A stretch of 64,000 nt of DNA from Shigella phage JK42: the sequence record MK962756. The stretch is one strand, 5' to 3'. How positions within the stretch are numbered: position 1 is the first letter of the stretch; each line of letters opens with the position of its first letter. The position numbers were made by a program, and so were the translations under genes. Of this stretch, positions 17,259 through 64,000 are shown piece by piece. The notes under the pieces are model-generated. The model had not been told where the DNA came from and did not search any database. It worked only from the letters and a program-made list of their open reading frames with translations.

Positions 17259-17918
17259 TTAACCTCGATTCATAAATGCATTAAATATTTGGTCATCAAC
17301 AGAAATTTCTAATTCGACTTCAATTGCTTCAGCCTTTTCTTCAGGTGGTAATTCGTATCCACACACTACAATTTTTTCATCGATATCAAAATATATAGAA
17401 GCAATACGATTAATGTTATTTTCAGTTAAGTCCAAATCAACATCAACATCTTTTTGGCCTACACTTAGAGGATAACTAATACGGGTTATTTTATTATCTT
17501 TAACAAAGAGTCCACCAACATACTCTGTACTACGTTTGAAGTTTACACGTTTCCGAATTGAAAGATATGATACATCTTTACCGTGAGCTCGGCTCATAGG
17601 ACATAATGAATAGCTAGAATAAGAGATGTCAAATCCTACACCTTCAATATGAGCCAACGTGTCATGATTAAACCAATTATAATCATATGCCAAATCCATT
17701 ATATTGTAATATGTGAAAGGCACAGGATTAACATCATATGTTGTACCTTTAAAATCTGCCCAGGCAACGATTTCGTTATCTTTAACAATTACAAAAATTA
17801 CACCAATATGGTATCCGTTATTATTTTCATTCGGCGTTATATTATAACATTGTGCATTAGGAAATTTACCATATTTAAATGGCGCATTTTTGTGCATATA
17901 ATAAATCATATTATTCAC
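17259..17918 (-). CDS. hypothetical protein
   Basis: 219-aa ORF. Confidence 0.5.
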   Translation of the reverse strand: MNNMIYYMHKNAPFKYGKFPNAQCYNITPNENNNGYHIGVIFVIVKDNEIVAWADFKGTTYDVNPVPFTYYNIMDLAYDYNWFNHDTLAHIEGVGFDISYSSYSLCPMSRAHGKDVSYLSIRKRVNFKRSTEYVGGLFVKDNKITRISYPLSVGQKDVDVDLDLTENNINRIASIYFDIDEKIVVCGYELPPEEKAEAIEVELEISVDDQIFNAFMNRG

Positions 17919-18204
17919 CTGTGATTTCGGTTACGATATCTTTGTTATCGAAATTAGGGTCACAATACAAAACATAGTTGTACTGCATGATACCGCCAGA
18001 CTTAAGTTGTTCAACAACTTTATTAACCATATTAGGACGGTCTCGTTTAGTGATGTTCATGATATCAGAGAAGATTTGTTGTTCAACATCTTCTTGATTT
18101 GCAGTCATTGACCACTCACAGAGGTCTTTATCATAACCTGCCGTAACTGGAGCCGGTGCACATGATACTGCAAGTAAGATTGCTGCCAATGATAACTTTT
18201 TCAT
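17911..18204 (-). CDS. sp: Spackle periplasmic protein (superinfection exclusion / lysis inhibition)
   Basis: 97 aa with signal peptide; GYDKDLCEWSMTA...IMNI.KRDRP...LKSGG.MQYNYVLYCD matches remembered T4 Sp. Confidence 0.75.
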   Translation of the reverse strand: MKKLSLAAILLAVSCAPAPVTAGYDKDLCEWSMTANQEDVEQQIFSDIMNITKRDRPNMVNKVVEQLKSGGIMQYNYVLYCDPNFDNKDIVTEITGE

Positions 18205-18267: not shown

Positions 18268-18516
18268 TTATTCTTTTTCGCGAATAATAATTACTTGTTG
18301 AGGCTGCTGAGCCGATTTCTTTTCGGCAACGATAGACCAAATTAAAGTTCCAATCCAACCAACCATCGTCCAGTTAAAGAGTAAAGATACAAAGAAGATT
18401 GCTGTTGTGCTTTTTGTGCCACGAATAAGTGCGATTACCCAAGGCAACATGTAAATGATGATTGAACCAATACCTGCGATTAAAACTGCTACTGAACTAG
18501 CTACGAATAATTCCAT
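18268..18516 (-). CDS. small membrane protein (two predicted TM helices)
   Basis: 82 aa, two long hydrophobic segments. Confidence 0.5.
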   Translation of the reverse strand: MELFVASSVAVLIAGIGSIIIYMLPWVIALIRGTKSTTAIFFVSLLFNWTMVGWIGTLIWSIVAEKKSAQQPQQVIIIREKE

Positions 18517-18577: not shown

Positions 18578-18946
18578 TTAATTAAATTTGTTTAAACGTT
18601 CAATACACTGGACGTAGTTATTCGCGATTTGTTTCTGGGTAGGCTCTTTACCAGTTGTTTCAACATAGCGAATGAATGCGATTTCAGTAGCCTGTAGACA
18701 ATGTTCTTTAACGCGTTGTTCTTTTGACAATGCTACGGTATCAGAGTCACGATAACGTTGAGCATGGGCATCAGCTTGAATCATTCGATTACCTACAGTA
18801 ACCGGGTCTTCCACTTCAACTTTAGGTTGGTCGTACTGTTTAACATTCGGATTGTAAATCAATTGGCCGACGTTATTAGGGATAAAGCCATGGGCACCAC
18901 ATCCGGTTAATCCAAACACCATTGCTAAAGCGATTAATTTTTTCAT
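18578..18946 (-). CDS. putative lipoprotein
   Basis: 122 aa; signal peptide with lipobox LTGC; early promoter upstream (18978-19014). Confidence 0.55.
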   Translation of the reverse strand: MKKLIALAMVFGLTGCGAHGFIPNNVGQLIYNPNVKQYDQPKVEVEDPVTVGNRMIQADAHAQRYRDSDTVALSKEQRVKEHCLQATEIAFIRYVETTGKEPTQKQIANNYVQCIERLNKFN

Positions 18947-55573: not shown

Positions 55574-55840
55574 TTACTTATCGCACTTAGCAACATAATT
55601 AGGCATATCACAGAATACGGAGCGAGTAACTATTCGTCCCTTTGACCATGCTTCAGTTGCTTGTCCGGCCGTGCTATTAATATAGCTTGATTTGATATTC
55701 TCAATACCCTGAGAATGTGATGCATTTACCGAACCGTTGGAAGGCCCAGAAGACTGGTTACCACCAGCTCCTGTACCTGTGGTAGCACCAACAGAGAATG
55801 CCATCATTACTGCGAATAAACCAATTACTAATTTTTTCAT
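55574..55840 (-). CDS. secreted small protein (signal peptide)
   Basis: 88 aa; N-terminal MKKLVIGLFAVMMAFSVGA; TATAAATA late motif ~33 nt upstream. Confidence 0.5.
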   Translation of the reverse strand: MKKLVIGLFAVMMAFSVGATTGTGAGGNQSSGPSNGSVNASHSQGIENIKSSYINSTAGQATEAWSKGRIVTRSVFCDMPNYVAKCDK

Positions 55841-58450: not shown

Positions 58451-58679
58451 ACATTTGCAATTCGGTGTGGGCTTCGGCCATCTTTTTCATAGCTCTGTTA
58501 ATGTCGATGTCTCCATCTTCGCAACCATGAGCATTTTCCCAATCAGATACCGCATTAGCGTACTCTTCAATCAAAAACATTAACTTAGAAATTTTTTCTT
58601 TACGTGACATAACGTTCTCCTCTAGTAAGTAAGGTTTACTATAACACAACCTGAGGAGAAGTAAACTGATAGATGCCAA
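58431..58679 (-). CDS. hypothetical small protein
   Basis: 82-aa ORF; early promoter at ~58631-58669. Confidence 0.4.
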   Translation of the reverse strand: MASISLLLLRLCYSKPYLLEENVMSRKEKISKLMFLIEEYANAVSDWENAHGCEDGDIDINRAMKKMAEAHTELQMYVNEIM

Positions 58680-58680
58680 A

Positions 58681-58704
58681 AAGCCCCGACCTTTCGGAAG
58701 GGGC
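58681..58704 (-). terminator. intrinsic terminator AGCCCC-(12-nt loop)-GGGGCT plus U5
   Basis: 6-bp GC stem; minus strand continues UUUUUGG; immediately after the stop of 58704..59015. Confidence 0.55.
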
Positions 58705-59015
58705 TAGTAAATTAGATAGATGTAGGCTCTAATTTTATTTTCATGAACTCGGCAAATTGTCTGGCAGTTTTTAATGCCTTGTTCATGACATTCAAATGCA
58801 TCATCACAGGGACTATTTTTGTAATGCTTTGCCATATACTTATAGAATTTTTCAGAATTCTCGACATTTTGAATTTCAAACAAAGTATATACGTTTTTAA
58901 TCCCTGATTCCATAAAGTTATCAAAATATGGGTCAATATGCGCAGTACCAACGATAGGAGTTGTTGCTGCAAAAAACCCCAGCATCGCTATGACAGCTAT
59001 CGCTCTTAAGGCCAT
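58704..59015 (-). CDS. secreted Cys-containing small protein
   Basis: 103 aa; signal peptide MALRAIAVIAMLGFFAATTPIVGTA; four Cys in the mature part. Confidence 0.5.
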   Translation of the reverse strand: MALRAIAVIAMLGFFAATTPIVGTAHIDPYFDNFMESGIKNVYTLFEIQNVENSEKFYKYMAKHYKNSPCDDAFECHEQGIKNCQTICRVHENKIRAYIYLIY

Positions 59016-59027
59016 ATAGGCCTCCTG

Positions 59028-59240
59028 TTAATTTTGGCCAGTATTTATTTTTCGCCTTTGGACGGCCTTAACATCTGCGAGGTATTTTTCCAGCTTGCGC
59101 TTGCGTGTATAATCAGCTTTAGAACCAGTTTGACGGATATCCTCGTTTAAATGAGAAATAGAATGTCCTAATTCTCTTCGGATTTCATCTAATTGGGTTA
59201 CAGTAAGATTACGAAGTTGTCTTTCGTTTAATTGCTGCAT
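59028..59240 (-). CDS. hypothetical small basic protein
   Basis: 70-aa ORF; TATAAATA late motif at 59265-59272. Confidence 0.45.
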
Positions 59241-59264
59241 ATATACCTCTTGGTTAGATATTAG

Positions 59265-59272
59265 TATTTATA
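59265..59272 (-). promoter_or_regulatory. late promoter motif TATAAATA
   Basis: Plus-strand tatttata ~25 nt upstream of the 59240 start; overlaps the tk stop. Confidence 0.4.
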
Positions 59273-59849
59273 ACAACCCTGTCAAATCATTCCAATGCTT
59301 CCGGCATAATGACACATATCTATCGGTATCACCAATTTCAATTTGACTGCCATCTGTAATTGGAAGTCCGTCTTCCGTGACTCTAGCTACCATTGTGGCC
59401 TTTTTACCACAATGACAGACACCTTTAAGTTCAACAAGCTTATCGGCAATAGCCATTAATGCTTGAGAACCTTCAAATAGATTACCTTTAAAATCTGTTC
59501 GTAGTCCATATGCCATTACCGGCACATTGTACACGTCAACAATACGACTAAGTTGATACACCTTTTCAGTAGTTAAGAACTGAGCTTCGTCAACAAATAC
59601 ACAATGAATATCCTTTTGTGCTGCAGCCCATTTATAAAATTCAAAGATATCCATGTCTTTTGTAATTATATTGGCATCCTGACGAATACCAATACGAGAG
59701 ACTATTTCACCTTTTGAATCGCGAGTATCAATAGCCGGTTTAAGAACTAATACACCCATGCCACGTTCTTTATAGTTATGTGCAGCAGTAAGTAATGAAG
59801 CAGACTTACCAGCGTTCATAGCGGCATAGGTAAAAATTAAACTAGCCAT
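59268..59849 (-). CDS. tk: thymidine kinase
   Basis: 193 aa; Walker A AAMNAGKS, zinc ribbon CHCGKKA...CRKHW; typical type II TK. Confidence 0.9.
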   Translation of the reverse strand: MASLIFTYAAMNAGKSASLLTAAHNYKERGMGVLVLKPAIDTRDSKGEIVSRIGIRQDANIITKDMDIFEFYKWAAAQKDIHCVFVDEAQFLTTEKVYQLSRIVDVYNVPVMAYGLRTDFKGNLFEGSQALMAIADKLVELKGVCHCGKKATMVARVTEDGLPITDGSQIEIGDTDRYVSLCRKHWNDLTGLL

Positions 59850-59858
59850 AAGAGTCCC

Positions 59859-60041
59859 TTATAGTGAATTCACATAGTCAATGAGTTCTTGTTCTTTCCT
59901 GTCAAATGATTCCAACAATGCTTGATATTCTTCGTCCGTCAAAGGAGCATATTCATCGTACGCATTGGTGGCTGCTTGCTCATCCAATAGGTCATGGATA
60001 AGTTCGAACAGTTTAGTTTTCTCTTCTTTAGTCAATTTCAT
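59859..60041 (-). CDS. hypothetical small acidic protein
   Basis: 60-aa ORF. Confidence 0.4.
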   Translation of the reverse strand: MKLTKEEKTKLFELIHDLLDEQAATNAYDEYAPLTDEEYQALLESFDRKEQELIDYVNSL

Positions 60042-60265
60042 TTAGGTTCACCTTCTTTAACGAAATCTGGGTAAGGGTAAAATCCTGAGTAAAACCCTTC
60101 ACCTTTATGATTGCTACAACCTTTGTTCGAACAGTAACACCAATAATCAAAATCACAAGCCATTTCGTCATTGCATAAAGCAAAAACTACAGGCCATTCG
60201 CATTTTTCGCATTTAGCACCTGTAAGAATTTTTGTTTGACTCATAGCCATGTCACCTTTAAGCAA
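60038..60265 (-). CDS. small Cys-rich (zinc-binding?) protein
   Basis: 75 aa; CEKCEW...C...C...CYC...C cluster. Confidence 0.4.
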   Translation of the reverse strand: MLKGDMAMSQTKILTGAKCEKCEWPVVFALCNDEMACDFDYWCYCSNKGCSNHKGEGFYSGFYPYPDFVKEGEPK

Positions 60266-60468
60266 TATTCTTCTACATGTTGTTTACGGCCTTTCTTATC
60301 AATAAAGGTATATTCAACGAATGTTCCGATGTAGTCTTTATCTACATCATGTGGACTATTAATTGGACATTTAGTACGACAAATGCGTTCCCATTGACGA
60401 ATAATTACTGCCTTATTCTTTGGATCGTATGGATGTGGATAATGTATATTCATAATAACGGTTCCCAA
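60241..60468 (-). CDS. hypothetical small protein
   Basis: 75-aa ORF. Confidence 0.4.
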   Translation of the reverse strand: MGTVIMNIHYPHPYDPKNKAVIIRQWERICRTKCPINSPHDVDKDYIGTFVEYTFIDKKGRKQHVEEYCLKVTWL

Positions 60469-60947
60469 TCAACAATCACAATTTCTAGTTTAGTAGAATA
60501 CGTATCTAAAATCTCTTCGATGACATCCCAGTTTCCACCACCAATACCTGCACCAATTCTTGGCATATAAATTACAGGCTTTATTATCTTATTCTTTCCG
60601 AATTCATTTAATTCTATTATACAATTCATTAAAGCAGAGTACTCAAAATTAGGTCCCGGCTCAAACTGTGTATAAAGATTAAAGCAATAAGCTTTATGGG
60701 TCTTAAAATATTTTTCATAAACCGAATAAGTCCCGAGTTTAGACTTGTCTCCGAATTCGGTTTGAAGTTTATCGGCTTCTAAAATTTTTGGATAAGCCTT
60801 TGCTAATTGGCCTGCTACACCGGCGCCCATTGTATGAAAACAATTACACCCATGAGCAATATTATTACCTTTAGAAAACAGGGCGACAATATCGCCCTTG
60901 ATATAGTTTTTAATCACTTGCTGCAAGTCCTCTATTATAAGAGTCAA
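60450..60947 (-). CDS. macro-domain protein (ADP-ribose binding/processing)
   Basis: 165 aa; NIAHGCNCFHTMGAGVAGQL fits the macrodomain N-x6-GGGVA-type motif; later IGAGIGGG glycine-rich loop. Confidence 0.65.
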   Translation of the reverse strand: MTLIIEDLQQVIKNYIKGDIVALFSKGNNIAHGCNCFHTMGAGVAGQLAKAYPKILEADKLQTEFGDKSKLGTYSVYEKYFKTHKAYCFNLYTQFEPGPNFEYSALMNCIIELNEFGKNKIIKPVIYMPRIGAGIGGGNWDVIEEILDTYSTKLEIVIVDWEPLL

Positions 60948-61257
60948 CTAGACGGTCCACCATAGAATTGCATGCTGCCTTATCTTTAGGTTCCGCCACC
61001 GAGCATTCTAATATTTGCCATTTTTTATAGTATCTTTTAATTAAGGTAGACGCCTTGAACCTACTAGACGCCCCGTCTTTTTCTCCGTCTTTATACGCAT
61101 ATAACAATTTTTGTGAAAAATCTACTTTACACTCTTGACTTTTACCACAGTAATCAGACGCCGTTCTGTTTGTATACTCCGTTACATCAGTATATGTAGT
61201 ATTAGCAAGAGCGTTAAATGAAACCAAGCCAACTATTAAAGCCAACATTTTGGTCAT
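60910..61257 (-). CDS. secreted Cys-containing protein
   Basis: 115 aa; signal peptide MTKMLALIVGLVSFNALA. Confidence 0.45.
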   Translation of the reverse strand: MTKMLALIVGLVSFNALANTTYTDVTEYTNRTASDYCGKSQECKVDFSQKLLYAYKDGEKDGASSRFKASTLIKRYYKKWQILECSVAEPKDKAACNSMVDRLVDSYNRGLAASD

Positions 61258-61796
61258 TCTTTTATTTCCAGTAGTTTATTTGATTTAAGGTAATTAGCCT
61301 TTTCTAGGACTTCAGAAGCATATTTACTTCCGGCACTTGTCTTCCATCCCGCATTATATGAGGATATAGCTTTTCTTATATCCCCGTTATGTATATTTAA
61401 CCAATAAGAAAATTCGATATAAGCCCATCTGGCTGAATTAGACCGCTTAGATAGCATTTTCTTAATTTGGGCATCAGTCATATTATAACCAAGCTGGTTA
61501 ATTCTTGCCCTCATTGTCGGTAGATAATTTTGGAACATTCCATACGCATGGTGACCTTTCTTATCTTTAAGATTAATACCGGCAGATGATTCCTGCCATA
61601 GTATTGCGGCCATTATGTATCCAAGTCCTTTCTTATGCATATTTTCATGCGTTTTAAATTTTCCATCCTTAGAAAACTGTTCCCCAAACTGATAAGCATA
61701 ATTCAAGTTATCGAGTTGGACATTACTAAAAGTATGCTCGGAGCTATGTGCTGATAATGAAAGAGCAAATAGACCAGCGAGTAGTGCTTTTCTCAT
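61254..61796 (-). CDS. secreted lytic-transglycosylase-like protein
   Basis: 180 aa; signal peptide; ...IMAAILWQESS...AYGMFQ resembles the SLT-domain catalytic ES and GLMQ-type motifs. Confidence 0.5.
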   Translation of the reverse strand: MRKALLAGLFALSLSAHSSEHTFSNVQLDNLNYAYQFGEQFSKDGKFKTHENMHKKGLGYIMAAILWQESSAGINLKDKKGHHAYGMFQNYLPTMRARINQLGYNMTDAQIKKMLSKRSNSARWAYIEFSYWLNIHNGDIRKAISSYNAGWKTSAGSKYASEVLEKANYLKSNKLLEIKE

Positions 61797-61804
61797 GTTT
61801 ACCT

Positions 61805-62263
61805 CTAGATTTTAATCACTGCTTTAGAAGCTTTTCCTGGTAGTCGTTTGTTGTTAATAATAGCCATTCTGCATTGAAGAGTCTTCATTTTGAATGCCGG
61901 ATTTTCGCGACAAACTGTAAGTCCTAACCAAAGATTTCCATCAGTTATTTCTAAACGACCCGGGCGATATTCGACACCTTCGACAAAATCTTCATCAACA
62001 TCTGGACGTGCCGGCATTGATAAAAATTCTGCAACTTCTTTAACATGATTTTTTACTTTATGAAATAATTCAAAAACGTAATTCTCATCTATTTCTCTCT
62101 GGATGGCACGATCTAAGAGATGTTGAGAATACTTGATATGAAAGCCTGGTAGTCCAAGAGACTTTGCAGCATCTTTTATACCGGCATTTATTTTGCGGAA
62201 CTCCGTTTCAAAGATTCGACGGAGTTTATTACGGCGGATAAAAACGTCTGAATTGATAGTCAT
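61805..62263 (-). CDS. regB: RegB site-specific endoribonuclease
   Basis: 152 aa; MTINSDVFIRRNKLRR...HIKYSQHLLDRAIQREIDENYVFELFHK...RLEITDGNLWLG...QCRMAIIN..RLPGKASKAVIK matches remembered T4 RegB. Confidence 0.9.
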   Translation of the reverse strand: MTINSDVFIRRNKLRRIFETEFRKINAGIKDAAKSLGLPGFHIKYSQHLLDRAIQREIDENYVFELFHKVKNHVKEVAEFLSMPARPDVDEDFVEGVEYRPGRLEITDGNLWLGLTVCRENPAFKMKTLQCRMAIINNKRLPGKASKAVIKI

Positions 62264-62324
62264 TTTGATTTCTCCTCTAGTTGACAGGTCTATAGTAACA
62301 CAACTAGAGGAGAAGTAAACTACT

Positions 62325-62540
62325 TTATTGATAAAATGGAGTTAAAGCCCAAGATTCTTTAGATACCATATTGGCGAAATGCCTCATCTCTTCGATTTGG
62401 CGTCGACGCTGGTCAGCATAGTCTTCTTCGCCTTCTTCCTTACAATCTTCAAGGTCTTCTTCAAGATACTTTAAGTATTCACTACAAATTTTGTTGACCT
62501 TTTCTTGAAAGTCCAATAACCCAGTAATAGTAGAAGCCAT
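62325..62540 (-). CDS. hypothetical small acidic protein
   Basis: 71-aa ORF. Confidence 0.4.
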   Translation of the reverse strand: MASTITGLLDFQEKVNKICSEYLKYLEEDLEDCKEEGEEDYADQRRRQIEEMRHFANMVSKESWALTPFYQ

Positions 62541-62806
62541 TAGTATTTTTCCTCAGGTCGAAATACTGCACGACACGCCCACATGCTGGCTTCTTTTAGA
62601 TGTTGCTTAGCATACTTAAGAGCCTGCACTGCATCCATATCTTCTTTGGTTTGTTGCTCTGTTTCATTTTCTTTCAAGATATATGCTTCTTCAATCAGAG
62701 CATCAAACAACAATCCAAGACGGACTTCTGCATCTTTAATAGCGTTCACTTTACCGATTTTATCATCGGTATGCGGCTTGTAGCCTTTGATGTCTTCAAT
62801 CGACAT
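62540..62806 (-). CDS. hypothetical protein
   Basis: ORF-track 62540..62974 shortened to the internal ATG at 62806, which has GAGGA upstream. Confidence 0.4.
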   Translation of the reverse strand: MSIEDIKGYKPHTDDKIGKVNAIKDAEVRLGLLFDALIEEAYILKENETEQQTKEDMDAVQALKYAKQHLKEASMWACRAVFRPEEKY

Positions 62807-63020
62807 AAGGAATTTCCTCATCGGTGGCAAGGTCATATTCGACCAATTGGATAGGCTCATTAATACCATATCCACGTACAGTGATATCAGTTGTCGGATA
62901 GTTTCCAGTAATATCACCCATTCTAAATGATTCAATGAATGATTGCTCGCCTGAGCAACTAAACCAGGCGGCAAAACATTTTAAAACATCTTCAGACCCT
63001 TCTATAATCAATTTAGCCAT
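62796..63020 (-). CDS. hypothetical small acidic protein
   Basis: 74-aa ORF. Confidence 0.4.
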   Translation of the reverse strand: MAKLIIEGSEDVLKCFAAWFSCSGEQSFIESFRMGDITGNYPTTDITVRGYGINEPIQLVEYDLATDEEIPYVD

Positions 63021-63382
63021 TATAGACTCTCAGTAAAGGTACGAGCGATAACGTCGCGCTGCTGTTCTGGAGTCAGAGAGTTAAAGCGAACTGCATAACC
63101 GGATACACGGATGGTCAGCTGCGGATATTTTTCTGGATGCTTAACTGCATCTTCTAGAGTTTCACGACGCAGAACGTTAACGTTCAGATGTTGACCACCT
63201 TCAATTTTAACTTTAGGGTGATGTTCAATTTCAATTTCACGGGCATGCAAACCGTAGAAAATTTCCGGGTCTACAATAGCGTCTTCTTTAAAAGTCTTAG
63301 AGACAATAATCCGGGCTTGAGTACCGTCTTCAAAATAAATAGTGCCTTTGTGTGTGCCTTCAAGAATTTGATATGCTTTCAT
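63020..63382 (-). CDS. autonomous glycyl-radical cofactor (GrcA/YfiD-like)
   Basis: 120 aa; C-terminal ...[16 protein letters not shown]... is the glycyl-radical signature (RVSGY). Confidence 0.7.
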
Positions 63383-63388
63383 ATAACC

Positions 63389-63687
63389 TCAATTAGAAAA
63401 TAAATTTATCCAAGTTTTTTCTTTAATCAAAAATGGGTCGGAATTAAACGCCATTAAACTTTGAGTGATTAATCCCTTAAATGGCCCATCAATAAATTCC
63501 ATTTTGAAATGTGGAATACTAGTCATCAGTCGTGCATTAGGAGCAGTACAAAGAACCTGCTGACCTGCGAACGGACCTTTAGTCAAACGATATCGTTTAG
63601 GTTTAAAATGGTAAATCTCATAATTTTCTACAAGAGCCCTTTTATTGCATACCGGGCTATTATAACAATATTCAAAAACTTCAATAG
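63389..63687 (-). CDS. hypothetical protein
   Basis: ORF-track 63389..63760 shortened to the ATG overlapping the upstream stop (ATGATGA). Confidence 0.4.
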
Positions 63688-64000
63688 TGGTCATCATTGC
63701 ATTCCAATCACAAAAAATTGAGGACGAGCAATACCGCCGTTGCAATATTTGCTTTTGCAACAGTGTTGGACTGTTTTAATATGTACATTGTAAATCTTAT
63801 CCATATCAGGAGCTTTAATAGGCTCGTCAATTATATACAGAATACGAGAAAGCGTTAATCCACGGAATTTAGAACCTTCATTGCCAATAAAACTACGAAC
63901 AGAATCAGTAAATAAACGGAATCGAATATCGTCGCTAGAATAACGAGAAAATTCTTTTTCAATGTTGCCAGCAGAAATTTTAGCATAAGCTGAAGTATTA
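63682..64000 (-). CDS. hypothetical protein, 5'-truncated by the window edge
   Basis: Open minus-strand frame from the window end to a TGA at 63682-63684; C-terminus ...HCCKSKYCNGGIARPQFFVIGMQ. Confidence 0.4.

What the first reader, a model, noticed from the sequence alone, without database searches (positions are those of the whole stretch)
60910..61796. Two secreted proteins including a lytic-transglycosylase-like protein, expressed from the early region
Both ORFs have clear signal peptides; the 180-aa one carries SLT-like motifs (WQESS, GMFQ). A periplasmic murein-remodelling enzyme separate from the endolysin could act in superinfection exclusion, lysis timing or cell-wall remodelling during infection.
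Basis: partly seen in the sequence, partly recalled or inferred. Interest (0 to 1): 0.35.

Follow-up and report, generated by a model that had tools for sequence, protein, structure and literature searches.

The report
T4 vs.1/vs: two exported phage proteins
These are the T4-type early genes vs.1 and vs: vs.1 encodes a predicted exported cell-wall-cutting enzyme, as already suggested in the literature, and vs also looks exported, which conflicts with its annotation as a modifier of a cytoplasmic tRNA synthetase.

Summary
On the minus strand, 61254-61796 (180 aa) and 60910-61257 (115 aa) are real, conserved genes of a T4-like phage closest to Mosigvirus. They are orthologues of T4 vs.1 and vs.

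Both start with Sec-type signal peptides, kept in 43/44 and 36/37 diverse homologues.

Vs.1 has all three family-1 lytic-transglycosylase motifs: E69-S, GMFQ and SYNAG, each with invariant residues. A confident AlphaFold model has GH23 enzymes as its best PDB matches. Its SLT likeness was already published for T4 in 2003 and 2006, so this part is known but untested biochemically.

The 115-aa protein is the gene annotated everywhere as "valyl-tRNA synthetase modifier". Three features point to the periplasm:
- a conserved signal peptide, replaced by a lipobox in one distant homologue;
- four invariant cysteines;
- a predicted four-helix bundle with no known relatives.

In 31 of 32 loci from several genera, vs overlaps or abuts the 3' end of vs.1. 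In published T4 transposon data, vs and vs.1 mutants share a fitness defect that is worse in minimal medium.

My best reading is a co-exported enzyme-plus-partner pair acting on host peptidoglycan before lysis. The pairing is inferred, and the conflict with the synthetase story is unresolved.

The parts
61254..61796 (-). vs.1 orthologue: 180-aa precursor of a predicted periplasmic GH23 / family-1 lytic-transglycosylase-like enzyme. The mature protein is about 162 aa, 18.7 kDa, pI 9.6.
   Evidence: ORF. 83% identical to T4/RB32 vs.1. phrog_600 at 3.7e-67. Pfam SLT at E 1.3e-3, 18.8 bits, below the 21.3 cut-off. AlphaFold pLDDT 92, pTM 0.84. Foldseek best matches are all GH23 or lysozyme-like.
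61743..61796 (-). Signal peptide of Vs.1 (aa 1-18, MRKALLAGLFALSLSAHS). Predicted cleavage is after AHS.
   Evidence: Hydropathy and site pattern. Conserved in 43/44 relatives.
61584..61598 (-). Motif I, WQESS. The codon of the predicted catalytic Glu69 is at 61590-61592.
   Evidence: E69 and S71 are invariant. E69 lies at the C-terminal end of helix 59-70 in the model. It aligns with E478 (ARQES) of E. coli Slt70.
61530..61541 (-). Motif II, GMFQ, equivalent to GLMQ of Slt70.
   Evidence: G86 and Q89 are invariant. Aligned to GLMQ of Slt70.
61347..61361 (-). Motif III, SYNAG, equivalent to AYNxG of family-1 lytic transglycosylases.
   Evidence: Y147, N148 and G150 are invariant. Present in essentially every homologue.
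60910..61257 (-). vs orthologue: 115-aa precursor of a small, predicted periplasmic, disulfide-stapled four-helix protein. It is annotated in databases as 'valyl-tRNA synthetase modifier'. The mature protein is 97 aa, 11.0 kDa.
   Evidence: phrog_1256 at 1.8e-35. Annotations in related phages. Four invariant Cys at 37, 43, 85 and 96, and an invariant C-terminal SMVDRLVDSYNRGL. AlphaFold pLDDT 86.6 with helices 20-37, 41-64, 69-85 and 90-114. No structural or sequence relatives outside its own phage family.
61204..61257 (-). Signal peptide of Vs (aa 1-18, MTKMLALIVGLVSFNALA). Predicted cleavage is at ALA|NT.
   Evidence: Low pLDDT (<55) over residues 1-19 in the model. A lipobox variant occurs in homologue P0165.
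61254..61257 (-). ATGA overlap of the vs.1 stop and the vs start, suggesting translational coupling.
   Evidence: Sequence. The gap between vs.1 and vs is -8 to 0 nt in 31 of 32 related loci.
61805..62263 (-). regB endoribonuclease gene, immediately upstream in the same transcription unit.
   Evidence: Pfam REGB_T4 at 3.5e-69. Only 8 nt lie between the regB stop and the vs.1 start.
62292..62320 (-). T4-early-type promoter-like site GTTTAC-N17-TACTAT upstream of regB. It is the probable source of the regB-vs.1-vs transcript.
   Evidence: Read from the sequence. The consensus is from my own knowledge of T4 early promoters. The T4 orthologues are early transcripts.
60880..60898 (-). G+C-rich hairpin followed by a U-run, 12 nt after the vs stop and inside the 5' end of tk.4. 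It may be a partial terminator or RNA end that closes the regB-vs.1-vs unit.
   Evidence: Terminator scan. Fold of -13.8 kcal/mol with z -1.7, so not exceptional. Annotated as a terminator in phage NBG1.

Best explanation
The two ORFs are the T4-type early genes vs.1 and vs. They form a conserved, translationally coupled pair, and both products are exported by the Sec pathway into the periplasm of the infected cell.

Mature Vs.1 (about 18.7 kDa) is a single-domain GH23 enzyme of the lytic-transglycosylase type. Glu69 acts as the sole acid/base catalyst and cleaves the MurNAc-GlcNAc bonds of host peptidoglycan, giving 1,6-anhydro-MurNAc ends. Because it is made early and carries its own export signal, it does not need the holin. 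It acts on the sacculus during the latent period as a limited remodelling or recycling activity, not as the lysis enzyme.

Mature Vs (11 kDa) is a four-helix bundle held by two hairpin-stapling disulfides, C37-C43 and C85-C96. It works in the same compartment, most likely as a partner of Vs.1 that regulates, inhibits or targets it. The pair improves phage yield, especially in poor medium.

Status of each step:
- Shown here: gene identity, conservation, signal-peptide architecture, catalytic motifs, fold, and synteny.
- Taken from T4 literature: early expression, detected proteins, fitness phenotypes.
- Inferred: actual export, enzymatic activity, disulfide pairing, the Vs-Vs.1 partnership, and the physiological role.
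For: Identity: 99.4% DNA identity to Mosigvirus-type phages. The gene order regB-vs.1-vs-tk.4 matches T4/RB32.

Export: Sec-type N-termini are conserved in 43/44 and 36/37 relatives while their sequence drifts. One Vs homologue has a lipobox. Four Cys are invariant in Vs. The hydrophobic cores are only 11-13 residues, too short for a membrane anchor.

Enzyme: invariant E-S, G-x-x-Q and YNxG motifs. AlphaFold pLDDT 92. Foldseek top hits are the GH23 chitinase 3w6e, MltD, phi29 gp13, Slt, Slt70 and phi6 P5, with probability 0.97-1.0 and TM-score 0.45-0.6. Profile alignment puts E69 on Slt70 E478 and GMFQ on GLMQ. No conserved second acidic residue is present, as in transglycosylases rather than goose-type lysozymes.

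Pairing: vs directly follows vs.1 with a gap of -8 to 0 nt in 31/32 loci from Tequatrovirus, Mosigvirus, Dhakavirus, Marfavirus and others. The pair persists in an Acinetobacter phage where regB and tk.4 are not the neighbours.

T4 data: both are early RNAs and both proteins are detected. In the HIDEN-SEQ LB control, insertion read means are 26.6 (vs) and 22.6 (vs.1), against 179-652 for regB, tk.4 and vs.3. In M9, vs falls by log2 -2.19 (adjusted p 0) and vs.1 by -0.87 (p 0.0055, adjusted 0.155). N-terminally His-tagged full-length T4 Vs goes to inclusion bodies in the cytoplasm.
Against: - No enzymatic, localisation or interaction data exist for either protein in the literature I could search.
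- The Pfam SLT score of this protein is below the curated cut-off (18.8 against 21.3 bits). Sequence searches against the PDB are not significant.
- Foldseek E-values are only about 1e-2 and TM-scores are moderate.
- Overlapping stops and starts are the rule in T4 early regions (vs and tk.4 also overlap), so the ATGA alone is weak evidence of a functional pair.
- Many phages (Ackermannviridae, Felixounavirus, Aeromonas CC2, Vibrio K440) have a Vs.1 homologue without any Vs neighbour, so Vs.1 does not need Vs.
- The vs.1 effect in M9 is not significant after correction and could be polar on vs.
- Classical T4 genetics and biochemistry (Neidhardt, Marchin and co-workers; cited from my own knowledge and through PMC8076793 and the HIDEN-SEQ preprint) ascribe to gene vs a roughly 10-kDa factor that binds cytoplasmic valyl-tRNA synthetase in vivo. 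I could not check how that genetic locus was tied to this ORF.
Confidence: 0.55

Rival explanations
1. Vs is what the databases say. It is a cytoplasmic factor (tau) that binds host valyl-tRNA synthetase. Its adjacency to vs.1 is only the tight packing of T4 early genes. The hydrophobic N-terminus is either not used for export during infection or exports only part of the pool.
For: Universal annotation of this ORF. Classical work cited in PMC8076793. The strongest M9-specific depletion in T4 is vs, which fits an amino-acid or translation role. The mature size of 11.0 kDa is close to the roughly 10 kDa I recall for purified tau (the tau size is from memory). Overlapping genes are common in this region.
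Against: A signal peptide with a nearly invariant -1 Ala, a lipobox in one homologue, and four invariant cysteines placed at two helix-hairpin turns all point to an oxidising, extracytoplasmic location. A mature size matching tau would itself imply cleavage by signal peptidase, which means export. The vs.1-vs pairing survives in lineages where the other neighbours change. The vs.1 mutants share the fitness defect.
Confidence: 0.3
2. Vs.1 is an accessory lysis enzyme. It waits in the periplasm and contributes to wall destruction or lysis timing at the end of infection, alongside the e lysozyme, rather than remodelling the wall earlier.
For: GH23 fold and motifs. rI, the lysis-inhibition gene, lies about 2 kb away (58704-59015). 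In an Acinetobacter phage the vs.1-vs pair sits right next to rI among other exported proteins.
Against: It is an early transcript with its own signal peptide, so it is not holin-gated. vs.1 is non-essential in T4, and insertions in gene e are almost absent from the same library, so e carries the lysis function. No lysis phenotype is reported.
Confidence: 0.15
3. Vs.1 is not a peptidoglycan transglycosylase. It is either a hydrolytic lysozyme or chitinase-like GH23 enzyme acting on another glycan, or a catalytically silent wall-binding protein.
For: The best structural match is a GH23 chitinase (3w6e). The only sequence-profile hits in the PDB are goose-type lysozymes at E about 0.4. The Pfam SLT score is sub-threshold.
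Against: The catalytic Glu and all three transglycosylase motifs are invariant. There is no conserved second carboxylate of the kind used by goose-type lysozymes or the GH23 chitinase. Peptidoglycan is the only obvious GlcNAc-containing polymer in the E. coli periplasm (established knowledge).
Confidence: 0.1
4. The N-terminal hydrophobic segments are uncleaved membrane anchors or signal-anchor-release domains, as in T4 RI or SAR endolysins, rather than cleaved signal peptides.
For: T4 uses such a domain in RI, encoded nearby at 58704-59015, with a 22-residue hydrophobic stretch. No cleavage-site predictor could be run.
Against: The hydrophobic cores are only 11-13 residues and are followed by conserved small residues at -3 and -1. 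These are typical of cleaved Sec signals and too short to span the membrane.
Confidence: 0.1

Closest known systems
Bacteriophage T4 Vs.1 (UniProt P13311; phrog_600)
   Same: Orthologue: 83% identical over 178 of 180 residues. It has the same length, signal peptide, motifs and position between regB and vs. A marginal SLT match is reported for all T4-like orthologues (PMC1524935).
   Different: Nothing of substance. This is the Mosigvirus-type allele. Function is untested in either phage.
Family-1 lytic transglycosylases / GH23 (E. coli Slt70 catalytic domain, MltD, P. aeruginosa Slt)
   Same: Lysozyme-like helical fold. The catalytic Glu lies at the end of a helix in an E-S motif. GLMQ-type and AYNxG-type motifs are present, and there is no second catalytic carboxylate.
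   Different: Very divergent: 13-20% identity, Pfam below threshold, and no significant PDB sequence hit. It is a single small domain without the superhelical, LysM or lipoprotein modules of the cellular enzymes, and it is encoded by a lytic phage and made early.
'Specialised' small exported transglycosylases of secretion and conjugation systems (VirB1, P19 of plasmid R1, IpgF/EtgA) - comparison from my own knowledge, not tested here
   Same: About 170-200 aa, with a Sec signal and a single GH23 domain. They make local openings in the sacculus without lysing the cell.
   Different: Those enzymes are tied to assembly of an envelope-spanning machine. No such machine is known to be built by T4-like phages during the latent period. 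Homology beyond the shared GH23 fold was not established.
Phage transglycosylases used for entry or lysis (lambda R, phi6 P5, phi29 gp13, T7 gp16)
   Same: Same fold class. phi6 P5 and phi29 gp13 are among the Foldseek hits.
   Different: Those are virion parts or holin-dependent endolysins. Vs.1 is an early, self-exported, non-essential protein.
T4 Spackle (Sp), present in this window at 17911-18204 (-)
   Same: A small Sec-exported, cysteine-containing phage protein that binds and inhibits a lysozyme-fold enzyme (the gp5 lysozyme domain) in the periplasm. That function is established knowledge. It is the best analogue for the role proposed for Vs.
   Different: Not homologous to Vs (hhalign probability 4%). 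The Spackle structures did not appear among the Foldseek hits of the Vs model. Spackle acts on an incoming phage's enzyme, not on a co-expressed one.
T4 Vs / 'tau' valyl-tRNA synthetase modifier (UniProt P13310; phrog_1256; PF26829)
   Same: Orthologue by sequence (67-70% identity) and by position.
   Different: The described activity is cytoplasmic. The sequence features of the whole family are those of an exported disulfide protein. The link between the activity and this ORF could not be verified here.

Membership tests
Family-1 lytic transglycosylase / GH23 (Pfam SLT, PF01464) | Lysozyme-like alpha-helical fold | tested here: met
   AlphaFold model with pLDDT 92 and pTM 0.84. The 23 best Foldseek PDB hits are GH23 or lysozyme-fold enzymes, with probability up to 1.0 and TM-score 0.45-0.62.
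Family-1 lytic transglycosylase / GH23 (Pfam SLT, PF01464) | Catalytic Glu in an E-S motif at the C-terminal end of a helix | tested here: met
   W-Q-E69-S-S. E69 and S71 are invariant in 44 sequences. The helix spans 59-70. E69 aligns to Slt70 E478.
Family-1 lytic transglycosylase / GH23 (Pfam SLT, PF01464) | Motif II G-L-M-Q and motif III A-Y-N-x-G | tested here: met
   GMFQ 86-89 and SYNAG 146-150. G86, Q89, Y147, N148 and G150 are invariant.
Family-1 lytic transglycosylase / GH23 (Pfam SLT, PF01464) | Score above the curated Pfam gathering threshold | tested here: not met
   18.8 bits against a cut-off of 21.3, E 1.3e-3. Several orthologues do carry a precomputed PF01464 hit.
Family-1 lytic transglycosylase / GH23 (Pfam SLT, PF01464) | Non-hydrolytic cleavage of peptidoglycan giving 1,6-anhydro-MurNAc | not testable with these tools
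   Needs purified protein and muropeptide analysis. No report was found.
Sec-exported (periplasmic) proteins - both ORFs | Positive n-region, uncharged hydrophobic core of 7-15 residues, small residues at -3 and -1 | tested here: met
   Conserved in 43/44 and 36/37 relatives. The -1 Ala of Vs is nearly invariant. No trained predictor was available.
Sec-exported (periplasmic) proteins - both ORFs | Demonstrated cleavage and periplasmic location | not testable with these tools
   Requires fractionation, reporter fusions or N-terminal proteomics.
T4 Vs (valyl-tRNA synthetase modifier) family, phrog_1256 / PF26829 | Sequence membership and position next to vs.1 and tk.4 | tested here: met
   phrog_1256 at 1.8e-35. 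67-70% identity to T4-type Vs. Synteny.
T4 Vs (valyl-tRNA synthetase modifier) family, phrog_1256 / PF26829 | Binding to and modification of host valyl-tRNA synthetase in the cytoplasm | not testable with these tools
   The sequence features argue against a purely cytoplasmic protein.
Periplasmic lysozyme-inhibitor families (LprI/DUF1311, Spackle) - considered for Vs | Detectable sequence or fold similarity | tested here: not met
   The DUF1311 structure 3gi7 appears only at rank 43, with E 5.2 and TM-score 0.2. No Pfam hit in any of 37 members. Spackle hhalign probability is 4%.

The most novel reading that the evidence does not exclude
The ORF that all databases call 'valyl-tRNA synthetase modifier' is in fact a periplasmic, disulfide-bonded four-helix protein of a fold with no known relatives. 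It works with the co-translated transglycosylase Vs.1 as a phage enzyme-plus-regulator module that remodels or recycles the host wall during the latent period. This module underlies the minimal-medium fitness defect of T4 vs mutants. In that case either the classical synthetase-modifier activity belongs to another ORF, or Vs is a dual-compartment protein.
Probability: 0.25. Interest if true: 0.6.

Novelty: already known. Interest (0 to 1): 0.38.

Why it matters
Vs.1 would be a third peptidoglycan-active enzyme of T4-type phages, besides the gp5 and e lysozymes. It would be the only one delivered to the wall early by the host's own export machinery. It is conserved in more than 2,000 phage genomes of several families, and nobody has tested it.

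Gene vs has a 50-year-old functional label and now a clear phenotype: it is the strongest minimal-medium-specific defect in T4. Its sequence says the protein leaves the cytoplasm. Settling where Vs goes would either correct a long-standing annotation that has been copied into hundreds of genomes, or reveal an unusual dual-location protein. The experiments needed are simple. For the scan itself, the finding is a correct reading of two already catalogued genes.

Tried and rejected
- Sequence searches of both proteins and of the Vs.1 profile against PDB chains gave nothing significant.
- Vs was tested against Pfam (37 members), NCBIfam, the PDB and BFVD by fold, and 1.84 billion protein representatives by profile. 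Only its own narrow phage family came back.
- Vs as a member of the LprI/DUF1311 lysozyme-inhibitor family: the only trace is a rank-43 Foldseek hit with TM-score 0.2. Rejected.
- Vs related to T4 RI or Spackle: hhalign probabilities 0.5% and 4%. Rejected.
- SAR or anchor reading of the N-termini: the hydrophobic cores are too short.
- Rfam scan of 58500-64000 found nothing.
- The hairpin after vs is not statistically unusual (z -1.7).
- The primary T4 papers that tie the vs locus to this ORF were not held (Miller 2003; Müller & Marchin 1975) or not found by search (Valerie 1986; Müller & Marchin 1977). That link is therefore unverified.
- A complex prediction for Vs.1 with Vs, or Vs with ValRS, was not possible with the tools.
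Full report
**What is there.**
- The window is a T4-like phage genome segment. The 1.9-kb stretch around the finding is 99.4% identical to Escherichia phage APCEc01 and Shigella phage JK45, and 98.8% identical to phage NBG1, which is classified in the genus Mosigvirus.
- On the minus strand the genes run regB (61805-62263), a 180-aa ORF (61254-61796), a 115-aa ORF (60910-61257), the macro-domain gene tk.4, small tk.x ORFs, and tk (59268-59849).
- This is the order regB, vs.1, vs, tk.4 ... tk of T4-type phages as annotated in RB32.
- The 180-aa protein is 83% identical to T4/RB32 Vs.1 and belongs to phrog_600.
- The 115-aa protein belongs to phrog_1256, 'valyl tRNA synthetase modifier', and is 67-70% identical to T4-type Vs.
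- The opposite strand holds only short ORFs of 30-52 aa, and no Rfam family matches between 58500 and 64000.

**Signal peptides.**
- Vs.1 begins MRKALLAGLFALSLSAHS|SEH and Vs begins MTKMLALIVGLVSFNALA|NTT. Each has a basic n-region, an uncharged hydrophobic core of 11-13 residues, and small residues at -3 and -1.
- SignalP was not available, so I used conservation as the test. The same architecture is present in 43 of 44 diverse Vs.1 relatives and 36 of 37 Vs relatives. The two exceptions are a Vs start truncated by gene calling and a Vs.1 relative with a lysine inside the hydrophobic core. Among ATG-started ORFs of 60 aa or more in the window, 16 of 157 show it, and that set includes known exported proteins.
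- The signal regions are less conserved than the mature parts (32% against 56%; 40% against 53%), as expected for signal peptides.
- The -1 Ala of Vs is nearly invariant. One distant Vs homologue has a lipoprotein box instead (MKKLFVLLIVFALSGC).
- The cores are too short for a membrane anchor or a signal-anchor-release domain like that of RI, encoded nearby.

**Vs.1 as a lytic transglycosylase.**
- Pfam SLT matches at E 1.3e-3, but at 18.8 bits it is below the curated 21.3-bit cut-off. PDB sequence searches are not significant.
- In an alignment of 44 relatives down to 40% identity, the invariant residues are exactly those of the three family-1 motifs: E69 and S71 (WQESS), G86 and Q89 (GMFQ), and Y147, N148 and G150 (SYNAG).
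- The AlphaFold model is confident (pLDDT 92, pTM 0.84). It puts E69 at the C-terminal end of helix 59-70.
- Its best PDB neighbours are all GH23 or lysozyme-fold enzymes: the Ralstonia GH23 chitinase, MltD, phi29 gp13, Slt of P. aeruginosa, Slt70 of E. coli and phi6 P5. Probabilities reach 1.0, but E-values are modest (about 1e-2) and TM-scores are 0.45-0.62.
- A profile alignment to the Slt70 catalytic domain is weak (E 0.06). It nevertheless places WQESS on ARQES (E478) and GMFQ on GLMQ.
- No second conserved carboxylate is present. That fits the single-Glu transglycosylase mechanism better than a goose-type lysozyme.
- This agrees with the published marginal SLT match for T4 vs.1 and its orthologues (PMC1524935, which cites the 2003 T4 genome review). 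I found no experimental study.

**Vs.**
- The family is narrow. An exhaustive profile search of 1.84 billion representatives returned eight proteins, all about 50-120 aa and of phage type.
- All full-length members keep the signal peptide, four cysteines (37, 43, 85, 96) and a C-terminal SMVDRLVDSYNRGL block.
- The model (pLDDT 86.6) is a four-helix bundle with an unstructured signal region. Each cysteine pair brackets a helix-helix turn, C37/C43 between helices 1 and 2 and C85/C96 between helices 3 and 4. I read this as two stapling disulfides, but that is an inference because I could not inspect the coordinates.
- No PDB or viral-model neighbour exists outside its own family, and no Pfam or NCBIfam family matches.
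- It is not related to RI or Spackle.

**The pair.**
- The vs.1 stop overlaps the vs start (ATGA).
- In 27 IMG/VR loci and five annotated phages, vs lies directly 3' of vs.1 with a gap of -8 to 0 nt in 31 of 32 cases. In Pseudotevenvirus IME-CF2 one small ORF intervenes.
- In an Acinetobacter phage a very divergent Vs still overlaps the end of vs.1 and keeps its signal peptide, four Cys and the same C-terminal flavour. There the other neighbours differ: no regB or tk.4, and two further signal-bearing ORFs and rI follow.
- Conversely, Ackermannviridae, Felixounavirus, Aeromonas CC2 and a Vibrio phage have a signal-bearing Vs.1 homologue and no Vs.
- Vs.1 is found in about 2,050 phage records and Vs in about 800.

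**Expression and phenotype, from T4 data.**
- A T4-early-type promoter-like site, GTTTAC-N17-TACTAT, lies upstream of regB (62292-62320, minus strand). Only 8 nt separate regB from vs.1.
- A hairpin plus U-run follows vs by 12 nt. It is annotated as a terminator in phage NBG1.
- In T4, vs and vs.1 are early RNAs whose proteins are detected in the 'middle' protein class (supplement of PMC9697503).
- In the T4 HIDEN-SEQ transposon library both genes are non-essential.
- In liquid LB their insertion read means (26.6 and 22.6) are about ten-fold below those of regB (179), tk.4 (290) and vs.3 (652).
- In M9-glucose, vs is the strongest depleted gene (log2 -2.19, adjusted p 0). vs.1 moves the same way (-0.87, p 0.0055, adjusted 0.155). 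Polarity of vs.1 insertions on vs cannot be excluded.
- Full-length T4 Vs with an N-terminal His tag is insoluble in the cytoplasm. That is compatible with, but not specific for, an export-dependent disulfide protein.

**Interpretation.**
- The best-supported reading is that both proteins are exported.
- Vs.1 is a small GH23 lytic-transglycosylase-type enzyme. It reaches host peptidoglycan early and independently of the holin.
- Vs acts in the same compartment, plausibly as its partner. The partnership, the enzymatic activity and the physiological role are inferences.

**The main conflict.**
- Vs carries the classical label of a factor that binds cytoplasmic valyl-tRNA synthetase. I could not reach the primary papers that tie that locus to this ORF.
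- The predicted mature T4-type Vs is 11.05 kDa and the precursor is 13.06 kDa. My recollection is that the purified factor was about 10 kDa. If that is right, it fits the processed form, which would itself imply export.
- I therefore keep 'Vs is the cytoplasmic modifier as annotated' as a serious rival (0.3) and flag the conflict as unresolved.

**Novelty and verdict.**
- The finding is a correct observation of two genes that are already catalogued, and the transglycosylase prediction is already published. As a discovery it is 'already known'.
- The residual value lies in two untested points. One is an early, self-exported wall enzyme conserved in thousands of phages. The other is the mismatch between the sequence of Vs and its textbook function, now testable against a clean minimal-medium phenotype.

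Noticed in passing
window 60450-60947 (-), probable true start GTG at 60917: This is tk.4, a macro-domain protein (Pfam Macro at 1.7e-6; phrog_335 'phosphatase'). The longest ORF starts at a TTG inside vs. By comparison with RB32 (155 aa) the start is probably the GTG at 60917, which overlaps the vs stop. The HIDEN-SEQ preprint describes a T4 factor that removes ADP-ribose from DNA to counter a toxin. I did not check whether that factor is tk.4.
   Followed up: partly
window 62272-62312 (-): A 12-bp inverted repeat, CTCCTCTAGTTG ... CAACTAGAGGAG, brackets the -10 element of the regB promoter. It would pair the regB Shine-Dalgarno sequence GGAG, the RegB cleavage motif, into a stem in any read-through transcript from upstream.
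   Followed up: no
window 17911-18204 (-) and 18268-18516 (-): These are Spackle (periplasmic inhibitor of the gp5 lysozyme, phrog_1586 at 2.9e-42) and Imm (superinfection immunity, phrog_1039). The window therefore carries another exported small protein that targets a lysozyme-fold enzyme.
   Followed up: partly
window 18578-18946 (-) and 55574-55840 (-): Two more small ORFs have export signals and no known function. One is a 122-aa predicted lipoprotein (MKKLIALAMVFGLTGC, phrog_1754). The other is an 88-aa protein with a Sec-type signal and a Gly/Ser-rich mature N-terminus (phrog_2243).
   Followed up: partly
L004 1393-1650 and L037 2393-2650 (Escherichia phage vB_EcoM_005): A natural Vs variant of 85 aa has an internal deletion that removes the first cysteine pair and helix 2, while keeping the signal peptide and the C-terminal block. 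It is either a decaying copy or evidence that the C-terminal half is the functional core.
   Followed up: no
L005 1774-2770 (Acinetobacter phage AB2I3): Here the vs.1-vs pair is followed directly by two further ORFs with N-terminal hydrophobic signals and then by rI. Together they form a small cluster of envelope-directed genes.
   Followed up: no
L006, L007, L008, L010 (Kuttervirus SS9, Felixounavirus DE7, Aeromonas CC2, Vibrio K440): Vs.1 homologues in phages that lack Vs carry 2-4 cysteines of their own, and some are mis-annotated as 'RegB' or 'lysozyme'. The Vs-associated Vs.1 proteins of this window and of T4 have none.
   Followed up: no
T4 HIDEN-SEQ table, Data S8: regB insertions are enriched in M9 (log2 +1.17, p 0.049, not significant after correction), opposite to vs.1 and vs just downstream. 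This argues somewhat against simple polarity from upstream insertions.
   Followed up: no
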